From Crassostrea angulata (Eukaryota): a stretch of DNA of 64,000 bases. The stretch lies in the NCBI RefSeq assembly GCF_025612915.1, contig NC_069115.1, positions 25,791,757 through 25,855,756 of the forward strand. The letters run 5' to 3'. This document shows, piece by piece, positions 2,446 to 57,926 of the stretch. How positions within the stretch are numbered: position 1 is the first letter of the stretch; every line of letters begins with the position of its first letter. The notes below the pieces were generated by a model. The model was not told the origin of the DNA. It was given only the letters and a program-made list of their open reading frames with translations, and made no database searches. The translations under genes and the position numbers were made by a program.

Positions 2446-3089
2446 TTTGTATTATTACTATTTTTTTTTCTCTTACTTACTTATGCTTACTAACACATGT
2501 AATACTATGTTGTATTATAATTTATATATAATTTATTAGACCCTTGACATCACAATTTAATGTAAATATGTTATTGTACCTCATGTACCATTGTATGATA
2601 ATGGTTTGAGAGAATAAATAAATTGAATTGGTAATGGTAATTTAATTGAAGAATTTAAGCAAGTAATTGTAATTTAATTAATTACTTTCCATTGTAATTG
2701 ACCTCATCCCTGCTTGTGTGGAAGCATTCTCAGGTAGGGTAGCTGCAAGTTCGTTCAAATAATGACCCTGGGGGTAGGGTGGGGTCACAAGATCCAGGGG
2801 GAGACGCAAAAATTTATTTAGGAATATATGGGGAAAATCCTTAAAAATCTTTTTTCTAAAAAAAATATTTTCCTAAGAAAGCTGAAACTTAATTGAAAGC
2901 AATCTCAGATAATGTAGATTCAAATGTGTTCAAATCAAAATCTTGAGTAGGGTAGGGCCATATTTGGGATCCAGTATTACAAAGGAACACATTTTAAATG
3001 TTCACAAAAGCTGAAATGTTATATTATATATTTTTACTTAATATATGCAATCATTTTGACATTTGTTGAGAATTTGGCTCTTAGACAAT

Positions 3090-3399
3090 ACTGGGACCTC
3101 ACAAGGGGTTCAGAGTTTGATGAAGGTTTATATCCTATATATAAACAATTGTTTAGGATCTTTTTGAGAACTGCAATGCTCAACATGTGATATGACTAAA
3201 AAATCATTTTGTTAGAAAAGGGAATAATGATAATAAACATAAGGATATCCAGAGGAAAAATGTATTTTTTTTATACATGATTTACATGTATTATACTAAA
3301 TTGTTTACTAGATAGTTTGTATTTAGACTACATTAAGCTGATTTTATCATATCTATTGTTCCTTAGATGAGCAATGAGGCCCATGGGCCTCTTGTTGAA
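3090..3399 (+). mobile_element. Family B non-autonomous element (about 310 bp) with the same 3' terminus as family A. It is an intact empty site for the family A insertion.
   Basis: ...cacaaggggttcagagtttgat...ggatcttttt|gagaactgcaatgctcaac...gagcaatgaggcccatgggcctcttgtt. Confidence 0.6.
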
Positions 3400-3776
3400 A
3401 GTTAACATACCTGGGGGAAAATACTTTGTATGGAAGCTGTGCACCTTTTCAGTAGTATGTCATAAACTCTGAAACAGCCATAGGTACTGTGCTAAACTAT
3501 AGGATTAAGAGTCCTTTCCAAATGAATTCAGACAGGGGGAAACTGAATTAAATGCATTTATGAGACTCCTCCACAATTTCATGTATGGGCTATGGTACTC
3601 ATGCCTATTGGCCTCTTGTTTTTACAATATTCTAGATTATTATTTAATTTGAATCAGAAAGATTTATGATTCAACAACTTTAGTTACTTTAATTCATATT
3701 TGTTCCATTTGAAATTTGCCTTGTGGGAGTCCCATTAGGAAAGTTCTATCTACTTTAATTTTGTAGAAATGGAGGT

Positions 3777-3846: not shown

Positions 3847-3985
3847 TAACTACAAGGATATTATCAAATGAAAATACATTTTTATGAATACAAGTCATAA
3901 GAACAAATGTAATAGACTAAGTATGATATTTAGGTTTTAACTTTTTTCATTTGATATTCAAGGTAATATTTTTGTTTATTTACAG

Positions 3986-4139
3986 GGAAGAGATAAGACA
4001 AGGGTCGTGACTTACCGTTGCCCATGTAACACAGCTGTACAAGTTTATAATTACCTGGAGAAAACTGCACGAGTGGTGTTTGGTCCTGATCTAATCATAT
4101 TGGGACCACATGAAAATTTTAATGTCCTCAGTCTCAGTG
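3986..4139 (+). CDS. MVP: MVP exon. Encodes [51 protein letters not shown], corresponding to human [50 protein letters not shown]
   Basis: Strong residue-level match to MVP. Acceptor ttatttacag and donor GTAAAT. Exon ends in phase 1. Confidence 0.85.
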
Positions 4140-4267
4140 GTAAATCAGTCAGGTTTCTTTGCAAAACTAATATCTATTGTGGTGTAAATGAAAATTTTCT
4201 TTTAAAGTAAAATTTCAAGGGATTTAAAATCTTCTTAGCCGTACAAATTTGAAAAAATTCATGTTAC

Positions 4268-4312
4268 CACACACACACACACACACACATATATATACAT
4301 ATATATATAAGA
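4268..4312. repeat. (CA)n microsatellite followed by (TA)n
   Basis: Visible directly in the sequence. Confidence 0.95.
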
Positions 4313-4346
4313 AGCACTAGCAAACCAACAACACTCGTTATCTAAA

Positions 4347-5519
4347 GTGTCGGATCAAAAGATACAAGGTTATAAGATGAGATATAAAAAAGCACTAAAA
4401 ATAACCAACGACACGAACAATAAAGTAAAATATTGTCAAATTTTCGGGACAACCCGTCCCTTCTTGGTTGACAACAGAAACAACCTCGATGATTTTATTA
4501 CCTTTGTCAATTCTTTCCATCATTCTATCAAATTTACGACTGAAATTTCCTCATTCAACAACACGTTTCTTGACACTACTTCAACTTTAGTCGATGGTAA
4601 ACTCGATTTCAATCTTCATACTAAACCTACAGATTCCCACCTCTATTTAATGACGTCTAGCTGCCACCCACCTCATACGTTTAGAGGCATACTAAAAGGC
4701 CTAGCCACCAGAGTCAGACGTATTTGTTCAACTCAAGAACTATACTCTGAGCAAAGTCAACTCCTAAAATCCCACTTATGTGCCAGGGGCTACAGCTTGC
4801 ACTCTGTACAGAATGCAATTGATGATTTAGCTAAAGAGGATCGTTTATCCCTTCTGAAATATAAACCCAAAAACGAAGACAACAAGGTCCCATTTGTCAC
4901 TACTTACCACCCTGTCCTTAGGGGCCTAAATGCAGTCCTAAAGAAGAACCTACCAATCCTTTACAGTAATGATAAAATGGTTGAGGTTTTCAAAAACCCC
5001 CCGATGGCAGCTTTCAAGCGCCCTAGAAACCTTAAGGACATGGTGGTAAGAACCAAACTAAAGAACCCTCTGCCTAATGGTGGCTTTAGAACTTGTTCTG
5101 ACACCAGATGTCTGTTGTGCAAACACAGCTCTGATGCAGACGACTTCTCTAGCCCCATTACTGGCCGTACTTACAAAATTTTCGCAAATACTTCTTGTCG
5201 TACGGACAATTGTGTATATCTTATCAATTGTAAATTTTGTCACAAACAATACGTAGGGGAAACAGGAGACCTCCGCAGGCGCATCAATAATCATCGTTCC
5301 ACCATCAAAACTAAGAAAATTAAAGAACCCGTCGGGGAACATTTTAATTTAGATGATCACAAATGGGAGGACATGATGGTTTTGGTCATTGATCACAACC
5401 CTAACTGGACAGATGCGGAGAGAAAAAATAAAGAAAAATTTTGGATGCATAGACTGAAGTCATTCCGCCCTGACGGCATTAACAAATTAAGTGACTTCAC
5501 CAAAATGAACATCAACTAA
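4347..5519 (+). CDS. PLE ORF: RT C-terminal remnant plus linker plus GIY-YIG endonuclease
   Basis: GIY-YIG motifs and CCHH-like finger, as described for the PLE above. Confidence 0.7.
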
Positions 5520-11479: not shown

Positions 11480-11574
11480 TAGCTCACCTGAGCTGAAAGT
11501 TTAAGTGAGCTTTTCTTATCATATTTTGTCTGTCGTCTGTAAACTTTTCACATTTTCACATCTTCTCAAGAACT

Positions 11575-11606
<32 letters not shown>

Positions 11607-11896
11607 TCATCGTTAGGCAAAGGGGATTCAAAGTTGTCAAAATTAAGGACCATGCCCTTTTTTGAGGGGAGATAATTAAAAATTAATGAGAAATTTTTAA
11701 AAATCTTCTTCTCAAGAATCATAAAGCCAGGAAAGCTTGTGTGGAAGCATCCTCTGGTAGTGTAGATTGAAAGTTGTGAAAATCATGACCCCCGGGGGTA
11801 AGATGGGGCCACATTGGGGGAGGGGGTGGTTAAAGTTTTACATAGGAATATATAGAGTAAATCTTTAAAAATCTTCTTCTCAGAAACTAATCAGCC
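11480..11896 (+). mobile_element. Family A element with head plus about 1.5 monomers, 3'-truncated by the adjacent TIR element
   Basis: Head at 11480. Ends abruptly at 11896 and has no tail. Confidence 0.6.
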
Positions 11897-11914
11897 AGAT
11901 GATTCTTTATTATT

Positions 11915-12775
11915 GTTAAAGCTGACATGAATTCATAAAAGCATTTGGTCGCCATATTAGTTTAGATCGCTTCTTTACTGCCACTGGGGTATATATACTG
12001 GTTGAGAAAGTTACGGTCGGTTGCTTTCCGATCGAGGCATTCACGTTGCACGGACTTCTAAATGCATGAACTACACATTGTTTATGTAGTAAAATGTAGT
12101 AATAAAGAATAAAGAAAACAACAATCAATGAAAAACCAAATATATTTTATTCTTAGAAAGGATGTCCAAGGTATCTGTATTATTTTGCACAGACAGTGCT
12201 GCCTTACCTCGCATGCACATCGAACATGTGTGTCGTTCATACAGAGTGCATAACGTCTGCATCTTCTTGAAAACTCTGGCGACACTACATCCAACACAGT
12301 AGCTAAATGATAGTAAATCCAAGAAAGTAACAACGTTTCTATCCGTTCCTACAAAAACTCCCCGTTTATAAAATCCATGCGATAATTGACATTGCTCGAT
12401 CTGTCACAGTGTGTTATTTGCGCATGTGCGATGTTATAACATACACAAGAAAACGGTCTACAATTATCGAGGAATTTCTGAAGTATCTGCGCCTGGATAT
12501 CAGTCTGTCTTGTTTCGTCGTTTATTGGATATATCTTGCCAGTGAAGTGGTTGTCATATTATTTTTGTTCAAAACACGTTTCACGAGTCTTTTCGTCCAA
12601 GGTAACGTGTTCGGGTGTATGAAATTCCTGAATGCGGTGAAGCATGACGAGGGCTCTCGGCCTTATATAGGGGGTGTGTAGCGATGAGCAGAACATAAAA
12701 ATCGACAACTAATATGGCAGTAGTCGGAGAAAAAAGGGAAGTAGTGCGTATTTATGAATTCATGTCAGCTTTAAG
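11915..12775. mobile_element. TIR element of about 860 bp with about 45 bp imperfect terminal inverted repeats (ttaaagctgacatgaattcataaa...gccatatt)
   Basis: The reverse complement of 12748-12771 equals 11918-11941. Both arms continue to gccatatt. Confidence 0.5.
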
Positions 12776-12874
12776 ACTTTGTCTCCAGGACAATTCTTTT
12801 GCCTCACAATTTAGAAGGTTCAGAGTTTGATGTAGCTTTATATCCCATATATAAACAATTGTTAAGGATCTTTT

Positions 12875-12890
12875 TAGCTCACCTGAGCCA

Positions 12891-12922
<32 letters not shown>

Positions 12923-13631
12923 GTCCGTTGTCTGTTGTTGTCGGCGTAGTCATCGTCGTCGTCGTTGTCGTCATCATAAACTTTTCACATTTTCATCTTC
13001 TAATCAAGAACCACTGGGCAGATCTTAAACAAATTTGGCACAAAGCACCACTAGGTAAAGGGGATTCAAGTTTGTTCAAATCATGGTCCCCGGGGGTAGG
13101 GTGGGGCCACAATTGGGGGATAAATTTTTATACAGGAATATATGGAGAAAATCTTTAAAAATCTTCTTTTTAAAGACTATTTGGCCAGAAAAGCTTAAAC
13201 TTGTGTAGAGGCATCATCGGGTAGTGTAAATTCAAGTTTTCAAAATCACAGTCCCTAGTGGTAGGGCGGGGCTGTGATGGCGGTTTTACATAGGAATATA
13301 TCGAGAAAATTTTTAAAAATATTCTGGGAAAGTTTTGCAGATTTATGTTTGATTGAACCATGATTCCCTAGAGAAAAGTGGGGCCATGAAATGAGGGGGG
13401 GGGGGGGGGGGGTATATAGGAATAGAGAAAAATCTTCTTACAGGTACAACAAAAGGGGCTTGGTATTTACCAAAAAAAAGGAGGTGGATAAAAATTGGCA
13501 GATTTTCAAATTTTTTAAGAAAGATCTACTGTACTAAGTTGTCAAGATATTTTGATACTGTAATGCTAATTTGATCTGAATTTAGGCAATTGTTGCTCAG
13601 GTGAGCGATGTGGCCCTTGGGCCTCTTGTTT
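12875..13631 (+). mobile_element. Family A composite element (pearl or Helentron-like): head, (GTCR)n-like tract, about 4 satellite monomers, then a tail. It is inserted into a family B element.
   Basis: Head is tagctcacctgagccaaaggctcaagtgagcttttctgatcac. Tail is ...gttgctcaggtgagcgatgtggcccttgggcctcttgtt. Empty paralogous sites at 3161-3166 and 41241-41246 show a precise insertion without target-site duplication. Confidence 0.7.
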
Positions 13632-13831
13632 GAGAACTGCAATACTCAACATGTGATATGATTATAAAATCATCCTATTAGAAAAGGGACTAATAACTAT
13701 AAACATAAGAATATCCAGGGGGGAAAATGGATTTTATTTATACAGGATCTACATGTATTATTGTACCGGTACATTGTCCAGATTGTTTGTATTATGACTC
13801 CATTAAACTGATTTTATCATACCTATTGTAC

Positions 13832-13863
<32 letters not shown>

Positions 13864-14299
13864 ATTTTAGTATCTGTTGTATTTGGTAACACTGAATGTC
13901 TGACAACCAAACATAACACCGTCAAACCAACAGACTTATCTTACAGGTACACAGAAGACAGCAACTCGCGTGTAAATTCGGAATTTCGGATTTATCACGA
14001 TTGCGCTAACATTACAAAAAATATAACTTTAAATTCAAACTCTGCATTGCTGCCATTATATATGCACAGTAAAGTTGTTAAGTACAGGCATGTAGCATCG
14101 TTTTTTAAAGGAAATAGGACAGAATAATCTGAAATCAGGACAAGCAAAAAGAAGAGACTCCTTATAAATTCAATTTTTTTTAGGTCACCCTGAATTTACT
14201 ATTGCTGTCCGTTTTCGTCCGCCGTCATGCATTAACAATTTACATTTCTAACTTCTTCTTAAAAACTACAAGGCTGATTGTTACCATTTTTGGTGTAAG

Positions 14300-15280
14300 G
14301 CATCTCTTTGGTAAGAGGAATCTAAATTGTGAAATTCATGTCTCTACCACCCCCAGGGCACCACATGTGGGGCCAAATATGCAAAAAAATAGCCAAATTT
14401 TCAAAAATCTTCTTCTCTACTCCCACACATGTGAGGAAAAAAGTGGTTACATAGTTATGATGTCCATGAATCCCTTAAACCAAAATTGTGAAATTCATGG
14501 CCCCTGGGTCAGGGGTTTTGGCTTTAGGGTGGGGCCAATATGCCCATATTGTAAAAATGTATTAAATCTTCTTCTCTACTACCAAAGATATTTGTTAAAA
14601 ACTAAATACATGATTATGATGTCCATGAAGCCTTCTACTTAAATTGTGAAATTCATGACCCTGTGTCAGGGGTTCAGGCTCGAGGAGGGGGGGGGGGGGA
14701 TATGGCCATATAGTAAAAATGTATTAATTTTTAGAAAATCTCTTCTCTACTCCCATATATATTTGTTAAAAACTAAATGCATGGTTATGATGAACATGAG
14801 GCCCTCTACCAAATTGTGAAATGCATGACCCCTGGGTCAGGGGTTCAGGCTAAAGGGTGGGGCCAATATGGCCATATAGTAAAAATGTGTTTAATCTTAG
14901 AAAATCTTCTCTACTCCCATATAACTCCACTAACTCCTCTACCTCAATTGGGAAATTCATGGCCCTTGGGTCAGGGGTTTAGAACATGAGGGGGGGGGGG
15001 CAATATGGCAATATAGTGTTAATGCATATGTTTTAAAATGTTCTTCTTTATTCTCACACATCTGTATAAAAAACTAACTTATAATTACGTTTACCAGGAA
15101 GTTCTAGTCTACTGAAATTTTAATTTTCATGTCCCCTGGAGTATGGGTTTTGACTCTAGGGCAGGGCGGAAATGGATGTAGAGCGCTAAGAGGTGTTGAT
15201 GCATATAATGTTAAAAAATTATCTTCTTTACTCCCACACACCTGAAAGGAAAACTGAATTCATGGTTTTGTAGACCAGAT
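14300..15280 (+). repeat. Family E satellite of about 7 units of roughly 150 bp, distantly related to family A
   Basis: Repeated attgtgaaattcatg.cccctgggtcaggggtt...gggtggggccaatatggccatat.gtaaaaatg...cttctctactccca. Confidence 0.75.
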
Positions 15281-16199
15281 CTTTAAGTTTTTCGCCAAAA
15301 TTATAGGTTTTACAGTTATTTTTGAAAGATTGCAGGCAGAGAGGTGGTCGTCATTACAAATTTATAATTTTTCTAATCCAGAATGAAACTTAATTAGTTA
15401 GATGCATATATGAGACTCCGCGAAAAGTTTGTGTATGGGTTATATGCTACGCAGGTGACTGTTAAGGCCAATATGCCTCTTGTTTTACTTGTAAACTTAA
15501 AAATTTTACCATTGGAGGAGAGGTTTGGAATTTGACTGCGTTGATTTAACTATAAACAAAGTGGCCAGCTATTGTAAGACAAGTTGCTGTCCTTTAAAAA
15601 AGGACTGCAATACGTGGACCATATGCATGTGTTTCCAACGAAAACGTGAAAGCCTTAAGATTATCAGATATTCCACCGACTCTAGCCGCCTACTTTTAAC
15701 CACTAAATTTGTACGTTGTATTACGTAAATGTATAACCCTGACTTTTTATCTCAGAATTTATAGGGTGCATACTACTAAAATAATTATGATCTATATTAA
15801 TGAAGATTGCATGTAAAGTATCAGGCATTCGGCGAATTCTACTATTTGCCCACACATTACGTTTCGCACTACTTTGTTTTATAAAACTATGCAGTGACAG
15901 CTTTGTGTAAATTAATTTCATATTTTGATGCATTTTTCTTGAAATTTTAACTTCTATACAGTGCCATAATTATTCAATCATCTATTATATACAGTTACAT
16001 AATTATTCAATCATACTTAAGTGCTTAAAAATTTTTAATCGGGAAGTACTTTAGCCTCGCCTACTATAAAAGTAAAGTTAAGCTACTTGTGTTATTCGGA
16101 AAACAACAAAACATTGCAAATTATGCTATTTGATGCCTGTTGTAGTAACGGCATAACATTAACTTATTTCATAATACTGACAGTTTATATCACAAGCCG

Positions 16200-21959: not shown

Positions 21960-24900
21960 TTATGGTTCTATGCACTATTAAAACTGCCAAACAACAGCAA
22001 CTACGATTACTACTACGTTTAAAACGGACTGAAACAAAAACTTCTGGAACCATTTATTTAAATTTTAAAAAAGGAAAAGAAAGTGTTAGTGTTTTAATTG
22101 ATCAAACCTTTCCAGGTACTCCCCTGGAAGAGTTATTTCCCTCTCCAAACACCATTGCCAAATCTGACTTGCAAGACTTATCAACTTCTTTGATTTTGTA
22201 CCCCCAATGTTGTTTATGTATGCTATCGCTACTTTGTTGTGCGATTGCAATAGTGCGTGCTTTTTTAAAATTTTCGACTGAAAACAATGAATTGCTAAAA
22301 ATGCTGCTTTGAGCTCTAACTCGTTTATGTGCTGATCTCTTTCGTTTTCCATCCAAAGACCGCCCGTTTTTGTATTTTGACAAATTGCACCTCAACCTCT
22401 CAGGCTTGCATCTGATTTGACAATAATGTTTGGTTGGGGACGGACTAAAGCTCTCCCGTTCCATTTGCTTAGTTTTGAAGACCACCATATTAGTTCTTGT
22501 TTCGAATCCTCGTCTAATTGTACATGATGCTCGTAATTCCCTCCGGTATGCAGGGCTCTTGTTTTTAATAACTTGAGACTACTGTAATGAAGAGGTGAGG
22601 GTAGAACCCCTTGATTTGTAGCTGTCAGACGTCCTATTATTAGGGCCCCGCAAGGATTTGCGGGTGCCCTATAGTAATCACTCTGTCCGTCCGTCCTTCT
22701 GTCCGTCCGTCCGTCTGTCACTCTTCCGTCCACAAATTTCCTGTTTTTTTCTAATAACTTTTTTTATGGTTGCCCAATCAAGTTCAAATTTGGTATGGTA
22801 GTTCAGTAGGCAGAAATACATATTTTGATGCTAAGTTTGGTTCTCTATGTCTTCTGGTTTGGAGCTGGGGTGGTGGGGTAGATTCATAACTATGCATAAG
22901 AAGAATGGGCAAAGAGAGATAACTGCTGAGAATGAATGGGCAAAGAGAGATAACTGCTGAGAATGTTACCATTGTATACATGGAAGGCTGTGCAATATTT
23001 GTCCTTTGGGATTAATTAACCTTCCACAGGAAGAAAATCCTAAGCTTTATCTTTATCTGTCACATTGAGATTAATTACTGCACTGCCTGTGTCTGCAAAT
23101 GAACTTTGTTTTGAAGTTAAGGTCAATTTTGAATGATGTGTAGTATTGTGTACATTCTTTGAAATATGGATTTGAAATATAATATTCATATTTTTGGGGG
23201 TTAAAATACCGTACACAATGATTTATGATAGTTTTATTGAATAGAGGCAAAGCCTAGGTATCATTGCATTGGTATCAATTCTTTGTTTTTTTAACAAATT
23301 TTATTTCATCCCATGTTAACCCACTTTATCCCGTGGATATGACTCATTGGATATTTTTTTGATATTCCAGAGTTGTGACTTTACAATGGGATTTGCCTAG
23401 GCATAATGAAGTAAAAATAATGTAGAGTTTTATAAACAGTGTAAACATTGATTGCGGTGTATAAAATATGGGATAAATAGAATCTCATGATTTGTAGTAT
23501 AATATGATTTTTATCCAACTTGTGTGTTTTATCCCCTCACTAAGGCTCAAGAAAAAAACACTTTAATTGTTGGATGAAAATCATATCCAACTACAAATCA
23601 CGAGATCCTATATATTCCAGTTCTTTACATCTTCTGCCGGGCATTTATTTTTCATCATTGTTAATATAAAGAGGATGGAATTCAAAGTTTTTTTCACTTC
23701 TCTATATTAATTGTCATAGCGGGGCCCTTCCTGACTGGTCAGTTTTCTAGTTTGGGCTAGATCCCGAGCAGAGACAGACTGACGACTCACAAGATCTAAG
23801 CAATTCTGCTTTATCTTTATCACCTTTTCTTTTGGGAGAGAGAGGGTCATTGTTTCTGAGTTTACAGTGAATCCCAGAAATTCAGTTACATGTGAAGGGA
23901 CTAGAACTAACTTTTCCTGATTGATCAAAAACCCTAGATTCTCTAAGAGATAGACAGCTGTTGACAGATCTGATTGAATGCCTGTGAGAGGTAAACACAC
24001 GTGGTGCTATTGCAATTCCAAATGGAAGGGATGTATTAAACTCCATTATTTTGTTTTTCCAAAAAAATTTCAGAAATTTTCGAAATTTCTCTGCCACGTT
24101 TATTGTCAGGTACGCATCTTTTAAATCTAGTTTTACTAACCAATCTCCCTCTTCCATGAGATCTCTTAACAGCTGTATCCCCTCCATTTTGAAATGCTCG
24201 TAAGGGAGAAAACTGTTCAGATTTTTTAGATTTATTACAGGCCTTAACTCGCCCCCCTTCTTCATTACCAAAAATACGTTGCTGTAAAAGGAATCGCTTG
24301 TGGGAGTTGTCTCCCGTACCGCATTTTTCAACACTTAATTCTCTATTTCGGAATCTATCAAAATCTGTTTCTCTGATTTGAATTTCGATGGAATCGGAAT
24401 TTTTCCCTTGAAAGGATTTGATAATATGGGAATTTCTATCCCTTTGATTGATTGAAGGATCCAAGGATCCCGTGTAATTACTTTCCAATTCTGATAGAAA
24501 TGTTTTACACGTCCCCCAACTGGCACTGACTGGGGAATTTCTACAGCATTGAAAAACAGGAATTTTGATAGATTCCGATCGATCTCTGATAATTCTACCC
24601 GTTTTAGACTCACCTGATTCACTGAGTGACTGATTTCTTGGGAGGTACTGTATATTTCTGGTTTGCTCCCTGACCCTTGAATTGTGGGTACTTTGTGTAT
24701 CTCTGATTCTGAGTGAACTGCCTCCTGTCTGTCTGTCTGCGACCCCCATACTGGAGGCTTGATGAGGGTCTCTGTAGAAAAAACTGGCGGTTTCTGTCAG
24801 AAAACTGTCTTGTTTGTGACCAAACTTTCTTATCACTGCCATTAAACAATAGCTGTTTTAATTCTTTATTATCTTTGTTATCTTTCGCTAATTGTTTAAG

Positions 24901-26332: not shown

Positions 26333-26436
26333 CTCAAGTGAGCTTTTCTGATTACATTTTGTGTGTCGTCCCTCTGTCTGTCTGTCCATCTGTCCATCTG
26401 TAAACTTTTCACATTTTCAACATCTTCTCAAGAACT

Positions 26437-26468
<32 letters not shown>

Positions 26469-26660
26469 TCATCCTTAGCCAAAGGGGTTTCAAAGTCAAA
26501 TTAAGGGCCACGCCATTTTTCAAGGGGAGATAATTAGACATAAATGAAAATTTTTGAGAAATATTAAAAAATCTTCTTCTCAAAAACCATTAAGCCAGGA
26601 AAGCTGAAACTTGTGTGGAAGCATCCTCAGGTAGTGTAGATTCAACGGTGTGAAAAAATT
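26333..26660 (+). mobile_element. Family A element: 5'-truncated head, (GTCY)n tract, one monomer
   Basis: acctcaagtgagcttttctgattac followed by ctgtctgtctgtccatctgtcc and the unit body. Confidence 0.5.
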
Positions 26661-28095
26661 AAAATCAACTCCCAAAAATAGCCTATTCTATACATCGTTC
26701 TGATGGAAAGTTGGTTCACGCATGCGCACATCCTGGCTATGATGCCTAGCTACATCATATAAAATATTATATTTATATTTTTAAGTGTCCTTTACTGTGA
26801 TAACCCAGCCCAATAATTTCATAAAAAACGAGCTACACAAAATCGGCGTGTCATACAGCATAATCGAAAAACAGTATTGGCTGCGCTGCGTAACAATACA
26901 TAGCATGTGTTATTCATTAAAAAAAACCAGTGGTTTTAGAATGTTGTTTTAAAGTGTAAAACATTACACCACCAAAGCAGGATATTATTTGTGAGAAAAG
27001 AAATTACCAAATTTGATACTGTGAGGCTGATTTGATCAGAGCTATGACTTTTGTCGATTAGGTGAGCAAAGTGGCCCTATGGCCTCTTGCGTTAATGTTG
27101 ACAGGCAAGAAATAATATCGAGAGAATATCCCCAACATTTCAATAAATTGCCTCTTATTCTTGGACAGTGACATATTTAAACCTTCCTGACTTCAAAACA
27201 AGGTGACATCATATAAGAAAATCAGTCAAAGCAAAGGACTCACAATGCGGTGGTTTGTTTGCATAACAGATACAAGAATTTGCGAATTTTTGAGAAGTAA
27301 AAATAGGAAAAGCATCTGTAGCATAATTTCTACGGGCAGTGAAGTATCACAATTGACCTTTTAATGCTGAGGGTAATGTAAATGCTGTAAAATTTGAGTT
27401 GTACATTCTTAGTTAAATTAATAAAACTTACAGCAATCTGTTTTCAAATCCTGTCTTGATTTTTGGTTTGTTTTTCATATAACAAAACAAATGATGATTG
27501 TGTTTTCAGACAACATAGCTCCCTTTGGACAAATATAGTACCCTCCACTAGGAGTTGGGCAAAATTTCATCTCTCGGGGGCTAATAAAATTAATATTGCC
27601 CTTGACGCCAGTCAATATTTGTATAATACATCATATCATATCACCAAATGCTTTTTTGTATCATTACTTGATATAATGTCATACAGTACAGTGTAATATT
27701 AACATATCATATGATAACAACTTTGAACCTTGAACGATTTTGTGTCAAACCACACTATATAATATTTTCATAAAGACTATCAACTATGATTTTCATATTG
27801 ATATGATAAAGTTGGTCTCATAACTGAAAGCCTGTCTTGGAGAATTCTGTAATCTTTGATTACCTACATGTATGTTTTATATTCTACAGTCAGTCTGATC
27901 ATCATGCATAAATTGAAACAGTATTCAATATAGTTATTCAACTTACCGGTAGTTTAAAAAAACTGATTCGACTTAGTTTTAAAAAAAAATGATGGTATAT
28001 GTCTAAAAGGTGAAATTGCATTTACATGCAAAAAGGTCAAATATACATGCATGATATCACTTTGTCTACAGTTACTGTACACAATGAAGAAATTT

Positions 28096-31319: not shown

Positions 31320-31835
31320 AAGCATGGTTTGAAGCTTTTTATGCCCCATTCGAAGGAGAGGGAGAGCATATTGCTTTGCTGCTGTCCTTCTGTCTGTCTA
31401 TCAGTCTGCCGGTCGGTTGCTCCACCAATAGTTGCCGTTTATTTTCTTTGCAGAGGCTGCACATATTAAAATGAAATTTGATATACAGATTTATCATAGT
31501 TTTTTCTAGGTCAAGATCAATTTTGGTTACAATCGAGCAATTTTCGACAGATTATAGCCCCTTTGACTTCCAAATTTTTGCAGTTTCCTTCATTTTCTTC
31601 TTGAACGTTTCCAAGGGGATTGGGGGGGGGGGGGTATAAGTGTTTCACAAACATCTTTTGTTATTTGTTTGTGGGGTGGGACAAACAGGGGGGTTACAGT
31701 CAAAGTAGTCTTGGATTAGACTCCAAAATGAAGTTAGAAATACAAACATTGGACTTTCTGACAGGTCCATCTTAGGGCTATGATACTCAGGTGACCCGTC
31801 AAGGCCATCGGGCCTCTTGTGTAAACAAATTATTT
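31320..31835 (+). mobile_element. Family C non-autonomous element with a different head, a (GTCT)n-like tract and a shared hairpin 3' end
   Basis: tttatgccccattcgaaggagagggagagcatattgc...ctgtccttctgtctgtctatcagtctgcc ... ctcaggtgacccgtcaaggccatcgggcctcttgtg. Confidence 0.5.
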
Positions 31836-37934: not shown

Positions 37935-37950
37935 TAGCTCACCTGAGCCA

Positions 37951-37982
<32 letters not shown>

Positions 37983-38089
37983 GTCCGTTGTCTGTCGTCG
38001 TTGTCGTTGTAAACTTTTCACATTTTAATCTTCTTCTCAAGAACCACTGGGCAGATTTCAACCAAATTTGGCATAAAGCACCACTAGGT

Positions 38090-38127
<38 letters not shown>

Positions 38128-39901
38128 CCCTCTTTAAAAGGGAGATAATTGAGAATTATTGAAAATTTGTTGGTACTTTTCAAAAATCTTCTTTTAAAAA
38201 ACTATTCGGCCTGAAAAGCTTAAACTTGTGTGGAGGCATCCTCAGGTAGTGTACATTCAAGTTTGTTCAAATCATGGTCCCAGGGGGTAGGGAAGGGCTA
38301 CAAGAGGGGGATCAAGTTTTACATAGGAATATATAGACAAAATCTTTAAAAATCTTCTTTTCAAAAACTATTTGGCCAGAAAAGCTCAAAGTAAAGTGGA
38401 AGCATCCTCAGATAGTGAAGATTCAAGTTTGTTCAAATCATGGTCCCCAGGGGTAGGGTGGGGCCACAATTAGGGGATCAAGTTTTACATAGGAATATAT
38501 AGAGAAAATCTTTAAAAATCTTCTTCTCAAAAATTATTAGGCCAGAAAAGCTCAAATTAAAGTGGAAGCATCCTCAGGTAGTGTAGATTCAAGTTTGTTC
38601 AAATCATGGTCCCCGGGGATATGGTGGGGCCACAATGGGGGAATGGATTTTTACATAGGAATATATAGAGAAAATCTTCTTCTCAAAAACTATTCAAATT
38701 AAAATGAAAGCATCTTCAGGTAGTGTAGATTCAAGTTTGTTCAGATCATTGTGCCTGGGGGTAGGGTGGGGCCACAATAGGGGGGATCAATTAAGTTTTA
38801 CATAGGAATATATAGAGGAAATCTTTAAAAATCTTCTTCTCAAAAACTTTTAGGTCAGCAAAGCTCAAATTTGAGTGGAAGCATGGATTTTTACATAGGA
38901 ATATATAGAGAAAATCTTCTTCTCAAAAACTATTCAAATTAAAATGAAAGCATCTTCAGATAGTATAGATTCAAGTTTGTTCAAATCATTGTCCCTAGGG
39001 GTAGGGTGGGGCCACAATTAGGGGATAAAGTTTTATACAACAATATATAGAGAAAATCTTTAAAAATAATTCTTTTAAAAATTATTTGCCCAAGAAAGCT
39101 CAAATTGGCGTGTAACCATCCTCAGATAATGTAGTTTCAAGTCTGTTCAAATCATGGTCCCTGGGGGTAGGGCGGGGCCACAATGGGGGATAAATTTTTA
39201 TAAATATAGAAAATCTTTAAAAATCTTCTCAAAACTATTAGGCCAGGAAAGCCCAAATTTGAGTGGAAGCATCCCCAGATCGTATAGATTCAAGTTTGTT
39301 TAAATAATAGTCCAGGGGTATGGTGAGACCACAATGGGGGATGAATTTTTACATAGGAATATATAGAGAAAATCTTTAAAAATCTTCTTTTTAAAGACTA
39401 TTTGGCCAGAAAAGCTCAACTTGTGTAGAGGCATCCTCGGGTAGTGTAAATTCAAGTTTGTAAAATCACAGTCCCTAGTGATAGGGCGGGGCCGTGATGG
39501 CGGTTTGAATTTTTACATAGGAATATATAGAAAAAATCTTTAAAAATATTCTGTGAAAGTTTTCGGTCCAAAACTCAGTATTTAGTGTGAAAGCACAGGT
39601 TATGCAAATTTAAGTTTAATGAAACCATTATTCCCTAGAGAAAAGTGGGACCACGAAATGGAGGTGGGGGGGGGGGGTATATAGGAATAGAGAAAAATCT
39701 TCTTACAGGTACAACAACAAAAGGGGCTTGGTATTTACCCAAAAAAAAAAGAGGTTGATAAAAATTGGCAGATTTTCATTTTTTTTTTTAGCAAGATCTT
39801 AGTACTTAGTTGTCAAGATATTTTGATTCTGTAATGCTAATTTGATTAGAATTAAGGCAATTGTTGCTCAGGTGAGCGATGTGGCCCCTGGGCCTCTTGT
39901 T
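37935..39901 (+). mobile_element. Family A composite element: head, about 10 monomers, tail
   Basis: Same head (37935) and tail (39860-39901) as the 12875 copy. The terminal monomer variants are shared with the copies at 12875 and 56215. Confidence 0.7.
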
Positions 39902-40142
39902 GTTTCTCATTTGATGAATTAGACTTAACATCTTTGATTCCCCAATCTTGGTTAAAAAGCAGTTCATAGTTAAATAAACTTGTACCAAAAATAATTTGAA
40001 AAATTGTTAATTCATACTTCATCTTATTTGGATTCTTTTTTTAGTTTAGTTGTTCTAAAAGTCATTAAGATTTTTATTAATCCATACTTAGAATAATTTA
40101 TGTTTTGTTCAGTCGTATCATGAATCATTCGTTTTTTTAGCT

Positions 40143-40239
40143 CACCTTAGCTGAAAGCTCCAGTGAGCTTCTCTGATCACTTTTTGTCTGGGGTCCATCG
40201 TTCTGTCTGTCTGTCCATCTGTCTGTATACTTTTTAGCC

Positions 40240-40277
<38 letters not shown>

Positions 40278-41060
40278 TTTTTGTCCTGTGTCCATCTGTC
40301 TGTCCGTCCGTCCATCTGTCTGTCTGGCTGTAAACTTTTTACATTTTCAACTTCTTCTCCAGAACCAATTGACCAATTTCAATTAAACTTGACACAAAGC
40401 ATCATTTGGTAAAGGGGATTCAAGTTTGTTAAAATGAAGGCCTTTCAAGGGGACATAATAAGGATTTATTAAAAATTTGTTGATATTTTTCATAAATCTT
40501 CTTCTCATAAACCATTTGGCAAGAAAAGCTGAAACTTGTTTTGAAGCATCATCAGATAGTGTAGATTCAAGTTTGTTCAAATCATGATCCCCGTGGGTAA
40601 GGTGGGGCCACAATGGGGGTCAAGGTTTTACATAGAATACACTGAGTAAATCTTTAAAAATCTTCTCCTCAGAAACCAATCAGCATGGAAAGCTGAAACT
40701 TGTAAGGAAGCATTCTGAGTTAGTGTAGATTTGAAGTTGTGAAAATCATGTCCCCTGGGGATAGGATGGGGCGAAAATGGGGAATCAAACTTAAACTTAG
40801 GAATATATATATTGTAAATCTTTTAAAATCTTCTTCTCAAACACCATTTGGCCAGAAAAACTAATTTATAAAAACTTGTGTGGAAGCATCCTCAATAAGT
40901 ACAAATTTAAGTTTTCTAAAAACCACTAAAGCTTCCCTAGAAAAGCTGTAACTTTACTGACAGCAACCTCAGATAGATTCAACTTTTTTCATATCAAAAT
41001 CTTGAGGAGTAGGGTGGGGCCACATTGAGTATCCAATTTTACAAAGAAAAATATTTTAAT
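40143..41060 (+). mobile_element. Family A element with a duplicated head (40143 and 40243), GTCY-rich tracts and about 4 monomers. No tail.
   Basis: Two tandem heads, ttagctcaccttagctgaaagctccagtgagc and tagcccacctgagctgaaagctcaagtgagc. Confidence 0.6.
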
Positions 41061-41149
41061 TCATAAAAACTAAAATGTTATCATATATGGTTTTATTTAT
41101 ATGCACGCATTTTAACATATTGCTGATTCTTTCAAATTGTTTAGATTTT

Positions 41150-42003
41150 GGCCCCTGGAGAATTAATGGCCCACACAAGGGGTTCAGAGTTTGATATAGG
41201 TTTATACTAGTATCCCATATATAAACATATGTTTTGGATCTTGTTGAGAACTGTAATGCTCAACATGTGATATGACTATATGTAACCCAGGCAGTAGACA
41301 GAACACCAGTGAGGGTCATACAATGTATTTATTCAATATATACAAAAAACCTGAAACATACAACATTGACTCATTTGACAATTATCTCAGAATACGGTAC
41401 AATAACTTGGATAAAGATTATTTAATATATAGCATGGAATTGTTAAATTATAAACATAGAATATATTTATAAGTAATAAATTACACAAGAATTACCAGAC
41501 ACCGGCAGCTAATCGCAGACAAAGCTTGCGCTTAATCTTCATACATACAGGTCTGTCCCCTCTCAAGGCAAGACAAAGTGTGCGCGGGCCTGGTTAGTTA
41601 GGCGGGAAGATTGGTTAGTAGAAGTTAAATTTAGAATGTTGTCAGACAGGTCAAACGGGTAGTCGAATGGTCAAATAAAAATAAACAATTACATGTGGAC
41701 AATCTCACCTGGAGATGTAAATAAAACACACACACATGCACACAGAAACAATTACGTTTACAAATAGACAAACATTATATATTAATTACTTACACTGGTT
41801 ACATATAGAATCATCCTGTTAGAAAAGGGACTTGATTATAAACATAAGAATCTCAGGGTGAAAAAAATTTGGACTTTTATTTATACAAGAGCTCCATGTA
41901 TTATTATACATTGTCCAGATAGTTTGTATTATGACTCCTTTAAACTGATTTTATCATACATATTGCTGCTCAGGTGAGCGATGTGGTCCATGGGCCTCTT
42001 GTT
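41150..42003 (+). mobile_element. Family B element interrupted by a nested TIR MITE at 41281-41803
   Basis: 5' part at 41150-41280, 3' part at 41806-42003 ending ctcaggtgagcgatgtggtccatgggcctcttgtt. Confidence 0.6.
41281..41803. mobile_element. MITE of about 520 bp with TIRs TGTAACCCAGG and CACTGGTTACA, flanked by a TA or TATA target-site duplication
   Basis: Flanks are gacta-TA|tgtaacc and ggttaca|TA-tagaatc. Uninterrupted copies of the host element read gactaaaaaatc or gattataaaatc. Confidence 0.55.
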
Positions 42004-46613: not shown

Positions 46614-46800
46614 GATTTACATAAACGAAAAATATAATACAGTTTCATATAACAAAACTTTGCTAGCAAGAATTTTATGTTACCGGGGAATGGTTGCTAC
46701 CGCGTTTGTTTATCCAGCGTCACGGTTACAATGGCGGCTGTTTTCCGCGACACCTATCGGGATGAAATTTTACTAAGGGAAATAACTGAAAAAAGTCGTC

Positions 46801-53059: not shown

Positions 53060-53137
53060 CAGCTTCTCTGAAGCAGCTTCTCTGATCAAACTTGTCTGTC
53101 GTCCATGTGTCTGTACAAACTGTTCACATTTTCAACA

Positions 53138-53171
<34 letters not shown>

Positions 53172-53511
53172 AAGCACAAAGAATCCTTAGGCAAAGGGGA
53201 TTCAAAATTGTGAAATTAAAGGACCACAACATTTATCAAGGGAAGATCATTAGGAATTATTGAAAAATTTGAGAATTTTTTTAAAATCGTCTTTAAAAAA
53301 ACCCCATTTTGCCAGGAGAGCTGAAACTTTTATTAAGCATTCTCGGGTCGATTCAAAGCTTTGAAAATCATGACACCCCCCCCCCCCCCCTCAAGCAAGA
53401 TCTACTGTACTTATTTGTCAAGATATTTTGATTTTGAGACTGTAATGCTAATTTGATCAGAGTTAGAGATACTGTTGCTCAGGTGAGCGATGTGGCCACT
53501 GTGCCTCTTGT
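53060..53511 (+). mobile_element. Compact family A element (degenerate head, one monomer, tail), 250 bp upstream of the MVP exon at 53763
   Basis: Tail is gttgctcaggtgagcgatgtggccactgtgcctcttgtt. A C(15) homopolymer lies at 53385-53401. Confidence 0.55.
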
Positions 53512-53762
53512 TTCTATACTTATTCTATTTCTCCCAAATGGTATTTTATCAGCATAAATATTATAAGGAACTTCTTTCGTATGTTTATTTGAAGCTGATG
53601 ACTGATTTAGCATATCCCAGTAAAGCAAATAACTGATGATATCTGATTATGGTTTGGAATGGATATACGTAACAAAAGTGTCAACAAAAAAATTAAGAGA
53701 TTTATGTATTAAGAAAATAATAGAGAGCATCAATTATGTTTTGATATTAAAGTTCAATAGAG

Positions 53763-56214: not shown

Positions 56215-56231
56215 TTAGGTCACCTGAGCCA

Positions 56232-56263
<32 letters not shown>

Positions 56264-56291
56264 GTCCGATGTCTGTCGTTGTCGTCATCGT

Positions 56292-56322
<31 letters not shown>

Positions 56323-57758
56323 AAGAACCGCTGGGCAAATTTCAACCAAATTTGGCACAAAGCACCACTAGGTAAAGGGGATTCCAGTTTGTTTAAATGA
56401 AGGGCCACGGAAAATTATTGAAAATTTGTTGGTATTTTTCAAAAATCTTCTTCTCAAAAACTATTCGGCCTGAAAAGCTTAAACTTGTGTGGAGGCATTC
56501 TCAGGTAGTGTAGATTCAAATTTGTTCAAATCATGGTCACCGCGGGTAGGGAGGGGCCACAGGGGAGGGTCAAGTTTTACATATGAATATATAGAGAAAA
56601 TCTTTTAAAAATCTTCTTCTCAAAAACTATTAGGCCAGGAAAGCTCAAATTAAAATGGAAGCATCTTCAGGTAGTGTAGATTCAAGTTTGTTCAAATCAT
56701 GGTCTCTGTGGGTAGGGTGGGGCCACAATAGGGGGGATCAAGTTTAACATAGGAATTTATAGAGGAAATCTTTAAAAATCTTCTTCTCAAAAACTATTAG
56801 GCCAGGAAAGCTTATATTTGAGTGGAAGCATCCTCAGATAGTGTAGTTTTAAGTTTGTTACAATCATGGTCACCGGGGGTAGCGTGGGGACACAATTGGG
56901 GGATCAAGTTTTACATAGGAATATTTAGAGGAAATCTTTAAAAATCTTTTTCTCAAAAACAAGAAAGCTCAAATTGGCGTGTAACCATCCTCAGATAATG
57001 TAGATTCAAGTCTGTTCAAATCATGGTACCTGGGGGTAGGGCGGGGCCACAATGGGGGATAGTTTTTATACATAGAGAAAATCTTTAAAAATCTTCTATT
57101 AGGCCAGGAAAGCCCACATTTGAGTTGAAGCATCCCCAGATCGTATAGATTCAAGTTTGTTTAAATAACAGTCCAGGGGTACAGTAAGGCCACAATGGGG
57201 GATGAATTTTTACATAGATATATAGAGAAAATCTTTAAAAATCTTCTTTTTAAAGACTATTTGGCCAGAAAAGCTTAAACTTGTGTAGAGGCATCCTCGG
57301 GTAGTGTAAATTCAAGTGTGCAAAATCAGTCCCTAGTGATAGGGCAGGGCTTTGATGGCGGTTTGAACTTTTACATAGGAATATATAGAGAAAATCTTTA
57401 AAAATATTCTGGGAAAGTTTTCGGTCCAAAACTCAGTACTTAGTGTGAAAGCACAGGTTATGCAGATTTAAGTTTGATGAAACCATGATTCCTTAGAGAA
57501 AAGTGGGGCCACGAAATTTTGGAGGGGGGGGGGGGGTACATAGGAATAGAGAAAAATCTTCTTACAGGTAGAATAACAAAAGGGGCTTGGTATTTACCAA
57601 AAAAAAAAGAGGTTGATAAAAATTGGCAGATTTTCAATTTGTTTTAGTAAGATATACTGTACTTAGTTGTCAAGATATTTTGATACTGAAATGCTAATTT
57701 GATTTAGAATTAAGGCAATTGTTGCTCAGGTGAGCTATGTGGCCCCTGGGCCTCTTGT
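56215..57758 (+). mobile_element. Family A composite element (head, about 7 monomers, tail) inside the last MVP intron
   Basis: Head is taggtcacctgagccaaaggctcaagtgagc. Tail ends ggcccctgggcctcttgtt at 57758. Confidence 0.7.
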
Positions 57759-57926
57759 TTTTATAATTATTTTAAACACCATGTAAACTTGAAAAAGAAT
57801 CAGACTCCCATTACAAATGCTGTTCATGTAAACTCATCATGGAAAAGCATTTATTACAGACATAAACTGAAATGTGTGTTAATCACTTCTGCAAAATTGT
57901 GTTTGAAATAACAATTATTTTTTTAG

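What the first reader, a model, noticed from the sequence alone, without database searches (positions are those of the whole stretch)
13596..13631. A common 3' terminus, GGCC-loop-GGCC hairpin followed by TCTTGTT, is shared by at least four otherwise unrelated non-autonomous families
Family A (satellite carriers), family B (3399, 13870, 42003), family B2 (3612, 15488) and family C (31835) all end in ...GGCCCATGGGCCTCTTGTT(T), or in the variants GGCCAATATGCCTCTTGTT and GGCCATCGGGCCTCTTGTG. GGCCCATGGGCC is a perfect palindrome. A subterminal 3' hairpin of this kind is the recognition structure of Helitron-type elements. This implies that one transposase or Rep mobilises many cargo types, including satellite arrays.
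Basis: partly seen in the sequence, partly recalled or inferred. Interest (0 to 1): 0.6.

Follow-up and report, generated by a model that had tools for sequence, protein, structure and literature searches.

The report
Known oyster Helentron (HINE) 3' end
The shared hairpin-plus-TCTTGT end is real, but it is the already published conserved right end ("Box 2") of the non-autonomous rolling-circle transposons (Helentron-type HINEs, Repbase Helitron-N2_CGi group) that carry satellite repeats around oyster genomes, so it is an ordinary, known feature.

Summary
GGCCnnnnGGCCTCTTGT occurs 5 times exactly (0 expected), and 11 times with a few changes. In every copy, similarity to the other copies stops at ...CTCTTGT(T).

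A paralogous empty site inside the window shows that this is a true element end. The target is a T-run, and no target duplication of 2 bp or more is made.

- a 12-nt subterminal inverted repeat, GCTCAGGTGAGC;
- a 5-nt spacer;
- the GGCC-loop-GGCC palindrome;
- TCTTGT.

Its mirror, TAGCTCACCTGAGC, plus an inverted repeat and a GTCY microsatellite, begins the elements. That is the Helentron/HINE layout, not the canonical Helitron one.

Published Boxes 1, 2 and 3 of Helitron-N2_CGi/N2C_CGi (Crassostrea gigas) match the window with 1-3 mismatches, so the feature is already known.

A and B also share the 5' end and Cg170-like satellites. B2 and C carry a variant repeat, ACTCAGGTGACC.

More than 120 metagenome contigs carry the same end on at least 11 other upstream sequence groups. 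No Rep/helicase partner was found.

One point remains unexplained: all 11 ends lie on the + strand.

The parts
13591..13630 (+). 3' end of HINE copy A1 (the finding). Layout: TGTT, 3' subTIR GCTCAGGTGAGC (13595-13606), spacer GATGT, palindrome GGCCCTTGGGCC (13612-13623), TCTTGTT. Equals published Box 2 with 1 mismatch.
   Evidence: Box 2 sequence from Table S3 of PMC8268682
12875..13630 (+). Complete short HINE copy A1 (about 756 bp), nested in the same orientation inside copy B(ii). The 5' end TAGCTCACCTGAGCcaaagGCTCAAGTGAGC... equals Box 1 with 1 mismatch. It is followed by a GTCY-type microsatellite and about 1.7 Cg170-like monomers.
   Evidence: The empty-site comparison with 3155-3176 fixes both ends to within 1-3 T.
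3155..3176 (+). Paralogous empty site, GGATCTTTTT|GAGAACTGCAAT, in copy B(i). It corresponds to the insertion point of A1 in copy B(ii).
11480..13866 (+). HINE copy B(ii). Contains a 5' subTIR at 11482, satellite monomers at 11687-11899, the A1 insertion at 12875-13630, and a B-specific tail at 13631-13866 ending ...GGCCCATGGGCCTCTTATT.
2712..3396 (+). HINE copy B(i). No recognisable 5' end; ends GGCCCATGGGCCTCTTGTT at 3396.
3397..3620 (+). It lies directly after the end of B(i). The terminus is TGCCTATTGGCCTCTTGTT, and part of the subTIR and spacer is deleted relative to relatives such as L069.
15445..15484 (+). Upstream, at 14396-15135, lie unrelated tandem repeats of about 160 bp.
26333..27093 (+). 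Diverged A-like copy. It starts within the 5' inverted repeat and carries Box 3 at 26402-26454. The terminus is GATTAGGTGAGCaaagtGGCCCTATGGCCTCTTGCGTT.
31782..31821 (+). This is the second subTIR lineage.
37935..39901 (+). Complete HINE copy A2. Box 1 at 37935-37978, Cg170-like array at about 38177-39552, Box 2 at 39862-39900.
40138..42003 (+). HINE copy B(iii). The 5' end is tandemly duplicated (subTIRs at 40140 and 40237). Satellite monomers at 40485-40920, a B-specific interior, and Box 2-like end at 41964-42002.
53075..53512 (+). 5'-truncated or diverged A-type copy ending GGCCACTGTGCCTCTTGTT.
56216..57759 (+). Complete HINE copy A3. Box 1 at 56216-56259, Box 3 at 56295-56347, Cg170-like array at 56436-57410, Box 2 at 57720-57758.

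Best explanation
The motif is the right terminal signal of non-autonomous Helentron-type (HLE2) rolling-circle transposons. These are oyster HINEs of the Repbase Helitron-N2_CGi/N2C_CGi group, also called Cg_HINE group 1, together with a sister lineage.

**Element layout.** Each element runs, in order:
- T|TAG, then the 5' subterminal inverted repeat GCTCACCTGAGC;
- a nearby complementary inverted repeat;
- a GTCY microsatellite;
- Box 3;
- a variable cargo, often Cg170/HindIII-type 166-bp satellite monomers;
- the 3' subterminal inverted repeat GCTCAGGTGAGC;
- a 5-nt spacer;
- the GGCC-loop-GGCC palindrome;
- TCTTGT|T.

**Inferred mechanism** (from what is established for Helitron-like elements, not shown here). 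A Rep/helicase(-endonuclease) supplied in trans by an autonomous Helentron nicks at the 5' end. It unwinds and copies one strand. It then uses the 3' subTIR, the stem-loop and the terminal TCTTGT as the stop-and-cleave signal. The single strand is integrated into a T-rich site between two Ts, with no target duplication.

Only the two ends are needed, so any interior that sits between them is propagated, satellite arrays included. This is why unrelated interiors share the same last 30-43 nt.
For: **Match to published sequences.** Published Boxes 1, 2 and 3 of Helitron-N2_CGi/N2C_CGi (Table S3 of PMC8268682) hit the window with 1-3 mismatches, at 3, 6 and 2 sites. None is expected by chance.

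**The ends are true ends.** The empty site GGATCTTTTT|GAGAAC at 3155-3176 compares with the filled site GGATCTTTTT-AGCTCACC...CCTCTTGTTT-GAGAAC. In 120 metagenome copies the base after CTCTTGT is T in 106. Composition is only mildly T-enriched from +2 onward (T 47% at +2), and the T-richness fades after about 25 nt.

**Subterminal inverted repeats.** The 5' and 3' repeats are complementary at 11-12 of 12 positions in six window elements. They co-vary between lineages: GCTCACCTGAGC/GCTCAGGTGAGC against GGTCACCTGAGT/ACTCAGGTGACC.

**5' hairpin.** The 5' subTIR plus inverted repeat fold to -10 to -12 kcal/mol as DNA, z about -4.

**Stem conserved, loop free.** There are 4 changes in 88 stem positions against 15 in 44 loop positions among the 11 window copies, Fisher p = 1.4e-5.

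**Same end on many interiors.** Clustering of the upstream sequences gave 17 groups: 11 from the metagenome contigs and 6 from the window.

**Satellite identity.** The arrays are 75-87% identical to a C. gigas CL1/Cg170 monomer.

**Not a retroposon.** There are no tRNA-like heads and no Rfam hits.

**Literature.** The layout matches the Helentron/HINE definitions in PMC4067079 and PMC11417382, and the Cg_HINE description in PMC7492417.
Against: - No Rep/helicase/endonuclease gene was found in the window or in 422 kb of related loci. The literature could not link any autonomous Helentron to these elements (PMC7492417; PMC7992393). Trans-mobilisation by a single enzyme is therefore inferred, not shown.
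- The 3' hairpin is only a 4-bp G+C stem. Its folding energy is not unusual compared with shuffles (z about -1.5 to +0.2). The evidence that it acts as a structure is the conservation pattern only, and no compensatory changes occur within the stem.
- The T-run makes the exact end ambiguous by 1-3 nt. A 1-nt T duplication cannot be told apart from T|T insertion.
- The 5' ends of the B2 and C copies were not found.
Confidence: 0.9

Rival explanations
1. The elements are cut-and-paste MITEs. The inverted repeats would be transposase binding sites and the flanking Ts a TT (AA) target-site duplication. Pearl and DTC84 elements were first interpreted this way.
For: - The elements are short and non-coding, with 12-nt inverted repeats near both ends.
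- In the single in-window empty/filled pair, the T counts (5 in the empty site; 5 + 3 around the element) can also be read as a TT duplication.
- DTC84 was published with 'TSD AA' (PMC3879986).
Against: - The ends are asymmetric. The 5' repeat sits 2-3 nt from the end. The 3' repeat sits 24 nt from the end and is followed by a palindrome and TCTTGT.
- Among 120 independent copies the second base after CTCTTGT is T in only 47%, so there is no consistent 2-bp duplication.
- The same architecture was tied to Rep/helicase-encoding Helentrons in mites, mosquitoes and flies (PMC4067079).
Confidence: 0.04
2. The shared 3' block is a LINE-derived tail of SINE-like retroposons, recognised by a reverse transcriptase.
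For: - Many unrelated bodies share a conserved 30-43-nt 3' tail with a small hairpin. That pattern is also seen in SINE/LINE partnerships.
- Reverse-transcriptase ORFs are present in the window.
Against: - There is no tRNA, 5S or 7SL-like head.
- There is no poly-A or simple-repeat tail after the block.
- The empty-site comparison shows no multi-base target duplication.
- A 5' repeat is complementary to the 3' repeat and co-varies with it. Retroposition would not maintain that.
- The RT ORFs belong to a Penelope-like element (with GIY-YIG) and to another fragment, and neither ends in this motif.
Confidence: 0.02
3. The common end spread between families by recombination, or by read-through and end capture (chimeric elements that acquired another element's 3' end). 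On this view the families did not each descend from, or get selected by, a single enzyme.
For: - Elements lie nested or end-to-start in the same orientation: A1 inside B(ii), and 3396|3397-3620.
- Several metagenome loci carry two or three termini within 100-400 bp in one orientation.
- One copy has a tandemly duplicated 5' end.
- Rolling-circle elements are known to form chimeras by end bypass (general knowledge; PMC7492417 introduction).
Against: This is a route by which interiors get swapped. It does not replace the terminal-signal explanation, because chimeras amplify only if they keep ends that the enzyme recognises. The co-variation of 5' and 3' repeats between lineages argues that the ends are matched pairs, not randomly reassorted.
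Confidence: 0.04

Closest known systems
Helitron-N2_CGi / Helitron-N2C_CGi (Repbase), equal to Cg_HINE group 1 (Cg_HINE_1, _2, _10_13) of Crassostrea gigas. Their conserved Boxes 1, 2 and 3 are given in Tunjic-Cvitanic et al. 2021 (PMC8268682); the elements are described in Vojvoda Zeljko et al. 2020 (PMC7492417).
   Same: - Box 1 (5' end), Box 2 (3' end, containing the finding) and Box 3 match window copies with 1-3 mismatches.
- The module order is the same: subTIR, inverted repeat, GTCY microsatellite, Cg170/HindIII-type repeats, subTIR, palindrome.
- The T-rich target and absence of target duplication are the same.
   Different: - Copies B(i-iii) have a different interior of about 1 kb and share only the last 42-43 nt of Box 2.
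- Copies B2 and C use a variant subTIR and spacer (ACTCAGGTGACC-GTTAA). I could not assign them to a named Repbase entry, because Repbase was not available.
- The species of the window is not established. The satellites are 75-87% identical to one C. gigas CL1 monomer.
Helentrons/HINEs and DINE-1 of arthropods (Thomas, Vadnagara and Pritham 2014, PMC4067079); HLE2 in the HELIANO classification (PMC11417382)
   Same: - 12-15-nt subterminal inverted repeats, 2-4 nt from the 5' end.
- Palindromic subTIRs, as in the mite HINEs.
- An inverted repeat next to the 5' subTIR, a microsatellite and central tandem repeats, as in DINE-1.
- A short palindrome within 8-35 nt of the 3' end.
- TT target with variable terminal Ts.
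   Different: There is no sequence similarity. In arthropods the autonomous partners (Rep/helicase/endonuclease) were identified; for the oyster elements none has been.
Pearl elements (CvA, CvE, CvG) of Crassostrea virginica, DTC84 of Donax trunculus and MgE of Mytilus
   Same: Bivalve non-autonomous elements with flanking modules, a microsatellite and central repeats of about 160 bp related to bivalve satellites. They were later re-classified as HINEs (PMC7492417; PMC3879986).
   Different: They were originally described as MITEs with an AA target duplication.
Canonical Helitrons (HLE1), for example Helraiser, and the oyster elements with Box 4/Box 5 ends
   Same: Rolling-circle superfamily, a 3' stem-loop a few nt from the end, and no target duplication.
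   Different: Canonical Helitrons begin with TC, end with CTRR and insert between A and T. The elements here begin TAG, end CTCTTGT, have subTIRs and sit in T-runs. Box 5 (…GATCGTGTCTAGT) is unrelated to the motif.

Membership tests
Helentron-type non-autonomous elements (HINE / HLE2) | 12-16-nt subterminal inverted repeats, the 5' one 2-4 nt from the element start (PMC4067079; PMC11417382) | tested here: met
   5' GCTCACCTGAGC starts 2-3 nt after the first base (T/TAG). It is complementary to the 3' GCTCAGGTGAGC at 11-12 of 12 positions in six window elements. The two co-vary in the second lineage.
Helentron-type non-autonomous elements (HINE / HLE2) | Short palindrome or stem-loop after the 3' subTIR, within about 8-35 nt of the 3' end | tested here: met
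   GGCC-nnnn-GGCC lies 5 nt after the subTIR and 6-7 nt before the end in 11 copies. The stem is conserved and the loop variable (p = 1.4e-5). Folding energy alone is not exceptional.
Helentron-type non-autonomous elements (HINE / HLE2) | Insertion into T-rich sites between T and T without target-site duplication | tested here: met
   - The in-window empty and filled sites agree with it.
- T follows the end in 106 of 120 copies, and at +2 T is only 47%.
- T precedes TAG in 6 of 6 window 5' ends.
- A 1-nt T duplication cannot be excluded.
Helentron-type non-autonomous elements (HINE / HLE2) | Termini shared with an autonomous Helentron encoding Rep/helicase (+ endonuclease) | tested here: not met
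   No Rep/helicase ORF was found in the window or in the related loci. This is absence from a small sample, not a negative for the genome. The literature reports the partner as unidentified.
Helitron-N2_CGi / Cg_HINE group 1 (C. gigas) | Sequence identity of the element ends to Box 1 and Box 2, and of the sub-microsatellite region to Box 3 | tested here: met
   - Box 1: 3 hits with 1-2 mismatches.
- Box 2: 6 hits with 1-3 mismatches.
- Box 3 (first 53 nt): 2 hits with 2-3 mismatches.
- None expected by chance.
Helitron-N2_CGi / Cg_HINE group 1 (C. gigas) | Central repeats of the Cg170/HindIII satellite family in fixed orientation relative to the flanks | tested here: met
   166-bp arrays inside A2, A3, B(ii) and B(iii) are 75-87% identical to a CL1 monomer. 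They are always in the same orientation relative to the boxes.
Canonical Helitron (HLE1) | 5' TC, 3' CTRR, and insertion between A and T | tested here: not met
   The elements start TAG, end CTCTTGT(T), and are flanked by T on both sides.
SINE (tRNA/5S/7SL-derived retroposon) | Pol III promoter-bearing head, a 3' A-rich or simple-repeat tail, and target duplications of 5-20 bp | tested here: not met
   No tRNA or Rfam matches, no tail repeat and no multi-base duplication.

The most novel reading that the evidence does not exclude
The strict same-strand arrangement could reflect a strand-specific step of Helentron integration. In the window, 11 of 11 termini and all 5' ends are on the + strand over 55 kb. 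In unrelated metagenome contigs, neighbouring termini are co-oriented 15 to 5. One possibility is integration of the single-stranded intermediate into one template strand of a replication fork, as in bacterial IS200/IS605 elements. Another is a strong preference to insert co-oriented next to resident copies. In addition, the 30-nt terminal signal is kept nearly unchanged on at least 17 different interiors and in DNA that is probably from other bivalves. That would imply one long-lived Rep lineage with a very narrow end specificity.
Probability: 0.1. Interest if true: 0.55.

Novelty: already known. Interest (0 to 1): 0.15.

Why it matters
The result confirms, on an anonymous window, the published picture. 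In oysters, a conserved pair of Helentron-type ends ferries satellite-like arrays through the genome. This is why satellite DNA there is scattered rather than concentrated in heterochromatin. Nothing new about the mechanism follows from this window.

Three points have some value:
- The window holds an internal empty site that pins down the element ends.
- The 5' and 3' subterminal repeats co-vary between two lineages that share the same palindrome and tail.
- The copies show a local co-orientation that has not, to my knowledge, been described for these elements. It would need a genome-wide test.

Tried and rejected
- **Motif in paper texts.** Searching full texts for the motif as a string found only unrelated primers and miRNA sequences. 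Table S2 of PMC7492417, which lists the subTIRs and palindromes, was illegible in the stored copy. The match came instead from Table S3 of PMC8268682.
- **Autonomous partner.** Pfam scans of all long ORFs of the window found only a Penelope-like RT and GIY-YIG, another RT fragment and a YqaJ-domain ORF. ORFs in the 120 metagenome loci gave Macro, PNMA and one Exo_endo_phos. The Exo_endo_phos ORF lies downstream of the terminus on the opposite strand, so it is more likely a LINE endonuclease. No Rep or Pif1-like helicase was found.
- **Viral and prokaryotic collections.** These gave 1 and 8 hits. All are in G+C-rich DNA with no extended similarity, which is about the chance expectation. The exception is a 664-bp AT-rich contig (L127), probably host contamination.
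- **SINE idea.** No tRNA and no Rfam hit.
- **Hairpin energy.** The 3' stem-loop is not more stable than shuffled sequence, so I did not use energy as evidence.
- **Strand bias.** An excess of T-runs on the + strand exists but is small: T5+ 230 against A5+ 185. There is no long-range AT skew downstream of insertions. Neither accounts for 11 of 11.
- **5' ends of B2 and C.** No complementary subTIR was found upstream.

Full report
**1. The observation**

At 13596-13631 the window reads CTCAGGTGAGCGATGTGGCCCTTGGGCCTCTTGTTT.

- GGCCNNNNGGCCTCTTGT occurs 5 times exactly, against 0.00 in shuffles.
- The 19-mer GGCCCATGGGCCTCTTGTT occurs 9 times with up to 3 mismatches, against 0.02 expected.
- Looser scans bring the total to 11 termini, ending at 3396, 3620, 13630, 13866, 15484, ~27093, 31821, 39901, 42003, 53512 and 57759.
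- Every one of them is on the + strand.

In a multiple alignment the copies agree up to ...GCCTCTTGT(T) and are unrelated afterwards. The motif is real and far beyond chance.

**2. Anatomy**

- TGTT
- GCTCAGGTGAGC
- GATGT
- GGCC-loop-GGCC
- TCTTGT(T)

The reverse complement of GCTCAGGTGAGC is GCTCACCTGAGC. It is found six times on the + strand, each time as (T)TAGCTCACCTGAGC-caaag-GCTCAAGTGAGC-ttttctgatcac, followed by a GTCY-type microsatellite. The sites are 11482, 12877, 37937, 40140, 40237 and 56218.

Pairing these 5' ends with the 3' ends gives these complete elements:

- 12875-13630
- 37935-39901
- 56216-57759
- 40138-42003
- 11480-13866

Most carry 166-bp tandem repeats in the middle.

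The 5' repeat and its neighbouring inverted repeat fold into a strong DNA hairpin of -10 to -12 kcal/mol, z about -4.

The 3' GGCC stem-loop is weak. Its z ranges from about -1.5 to +0.2, with one copy at -2.9. Its stem is nevertheless conserved while its loop is free: 4 changes in 88 stem positions against 15 in 44 loop positions, p = 1.4e-5.

**3. Are these true ends?**

The window contains its own control. Element 12875-13630 sits inside a copy of family B (11480-13866). Another B copy at 3155-3176 shows the uninterrupted site:

- Empty site: GGATCTTTTT|GAGAACTGCAAT.
- Filled site, left junction: GGATCTTTTT-AGCTCACC...
- Filled site, right junction...CCTCTTGTTT-GAGAACTGCAAT.

So the motif is the physical end of the element, to within 1-3 T. 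The target is a T-run, and no duplication of 2 bp or more is made.

**4. Related sequences elsewhere**

*Metagenome contigs.* I scanned public metagenome contigs with GGTGA-N7-8-GGCC-N4-GGCCTCTTGT.

- The base after CTCTTGT is T in 106 of 120 copies. At +2, T falls to 47%, and the T-richness fades within about 25 nt.
- The 195 nt upstream of the motif were clustered for 65 metagenome copies and the 11 window copies together. They fell into 17 groups: 11 metagenome groups (of 40 and 16 members, plus nine singletons) and 6 window groups. No metagenome copy clustered with the window's A or B.
- Many contigs hold complete small elements with the same 5' end.
- In a second lineage both repeats have changed together: 5' GGTCACCTGAGT with 3' ACTCAGGTGACC, against 5' GCTCACCTGAGC with 3' GCTCAGGTGAGC. 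This is compensatory co-variation between the two ends.
- The window's copies B2 and C belong to this second lineage by their 3' repeat and spacer.

*Controls.* The same pattern gave only 8 hits in 596 Gb of prokaryotic genomes and 1 in viral contigs. All are in G+C-rich DNA without extended similarity. The exception is a 664-bp AT-rich contig that looks like host contamination.

**5. Identification**

The layout is the one that defines Helentron-type non-autonomous elements:

- a subterminal inverted repeat 2-3 nt from the 5' end;
- an adjacent inverted repeat;
- a microsatellite;
- central tandem repeats;
- a 3' subterminal repeat followed by a short palindrome;
- a T-T target with no duplication.

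These elements are called HINEs, and HLE2 in the newer nomenclature (PMC4067079; PMC11417382).

In the Pacific oyster they were described as Cg_HINE elements carrying Cg170/HindIII-type satellites (PMC7492417).

The decisive link is sequence identity. Table S3 of Tunjic-Cvitanic et al. 2021 lists the conserved ends of Repbase Helitron-N2_CGi/N2C_CGi:

[quoted passage not shown] Matches in the window:

| Box | Hits | Mismatches |
|---|---|---|
| Box 1 | 3 | 1-2 |
| Box 2 | 6 | 1-3 |
| Box 3 | 2 | 2-3 |

The finding's coordinates are Box 2 with a single mismatch. The window's satellites are 75-87% identical to a C. gigas CL1 monomer. The window is therefore from an ostreid oyster, probably a Crassostrea; the species was not determined.

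Canonical Helitron features (5' TC, 3' CTRR, A-T target) are absent. SINE features are also absent: no tRNA and no Rfam hits.

**6. How it most likely works**

*Shown here:*

- the ends, their complementarity and co-variation;
- the conserved stem and tail with a free loop;
- the T-run target without duplication;
- the same ends on many different interiors.

*Inferred from established knowledge of Helitron-like elements:* a Rep/helicase from an autonomous Helentron starts at the 5' end and terminates at the 3' subTIR, stem-loop and TCTTGT signal. Whatever lies between is moved, satellite arrays included.

*Not shown:* that a single enzyme serves all these families, or that any is still active.

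- No Rep/helicase ORF is present in the window or in the 422 kb of related loci.
- The oyster literature reports that no autonomous partner could be linked, and that none was detected in the assembly.
- Copies within family A differ by 8-17%, so these are not recent insertions.

**7.

The core is right: a shared Helitron-superfamily 3' terminus on non-autonomous elements that carry satellites. Three points need correction.

- A and B are not otherwise unrelated. They share Box 1, Box 3 and the satellites.
- B2 and C form one further lineage, so there are two terminal lineages rather than four independent families.
- The type is Helentron/HINE rather than canonical Helitron.

**8. Novelty and score**

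The feature is already known and published in sequence detail, so interest is low.

The one thing I could not explain is orientation.

- All 11 termini and all six 5' ends are on the + strand (two-sided p = 0.001).
- The satellite arrays are also + except at 62917-64000.
- In the unrelated metagenome contigs, second termini are co-oriented with the first 15 times against 5 (p = 0.04).
- Flank homology stops at the element ends, so these are separate insertions, not segmental duplications.
- The + strand has only a slight excess of T-runs.
- There is no long-range AT skew around insertions.

Possible explanations are co-oriented nesting or adjacent insertion, read-through chimeras, selection within a transcription unit, or a strand-specific integration step. 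A genome-wide test would decide among them.

Noticed in passing
window 3396-57759 (all 11 termini); metagenome loci L001-L120: All 11 3' termini and all six 5' ends are on the + strand (p = 0.001). In metagenome contigs a second terminus is co-oriented with the first 15 times against 5 (p = 0.04). Neither T-run asymmetry nor regional AT skew explains it.
   Followed up: partly
window 40138-40331: The 5' end of one element (subTIR, inverted repeat and GTCY microsatellite, 97 bp) is tandemly duplicated. The element therefore has two consecutive left ends, at 40140 and 40237.
   Followed up: partly
window 889-5516 (+): A Penelope-like retroelement has its reverse-transcriptase ORF at 889-2328 and its GIY-YIG endonuclease ORF at 4311-5516. 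Two HINE pieces (2712-3396 and 3397-3620) lie between them.
   Followed up: no
window 45159-46616 (-), 46801-48329: A 486-aa ORF with a YqaJ-like recombinase/exonuclease domain (E = 3.7e-6) lies next to a 464-bp repeat present in about three tandem copies. It is probably another mobile element and was not identified.
   Followed up: no
window 59774-64000: A long Cg170-like satellite array of about 19 monomers, with 330- and 500-bp higher-order periodicity, runs on the + strand to 62916. It abuts an inverted array of the same satellite (62917-64000) with no HINE boxes at the junction.
   Followed up: partly
window 14396-15135: About 4.5 diverged tandem copies of a repeat of about 160 bp, unrelated to Cg170, lie upstream of the terminus at 15484. 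This suggests a HINE of the second lineage with a different cargo. Tandem Repeats Finder missed it; self-BLAST showed it.
   Followed up: no
L127 (JAAZZZ010000276.1, 664 bp): An AT-rich contig binned into a Gammaproteobacteria MAG carries an exact second-lineage HINE terminus (GGTGACCGTTAAGGCCCTTGGGCCTCTTGT). It is most likely animal host DNA mis-binned into the MAG.
   Followed up: partly
window 43733-44164 and 29429-29887: A 430-bp foldback-like inverted repeat (77% self-complementary) has related copies about 14 kb away. This is another repeat family, not examined.
   Followed up: no
window 23882-25185 (-): A second reverse-transcriptase fragment (RVT_1, E = 5.8e-8) lies among several overlapping ORFs. 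It is a degraded retroelement.
   Followed up: no
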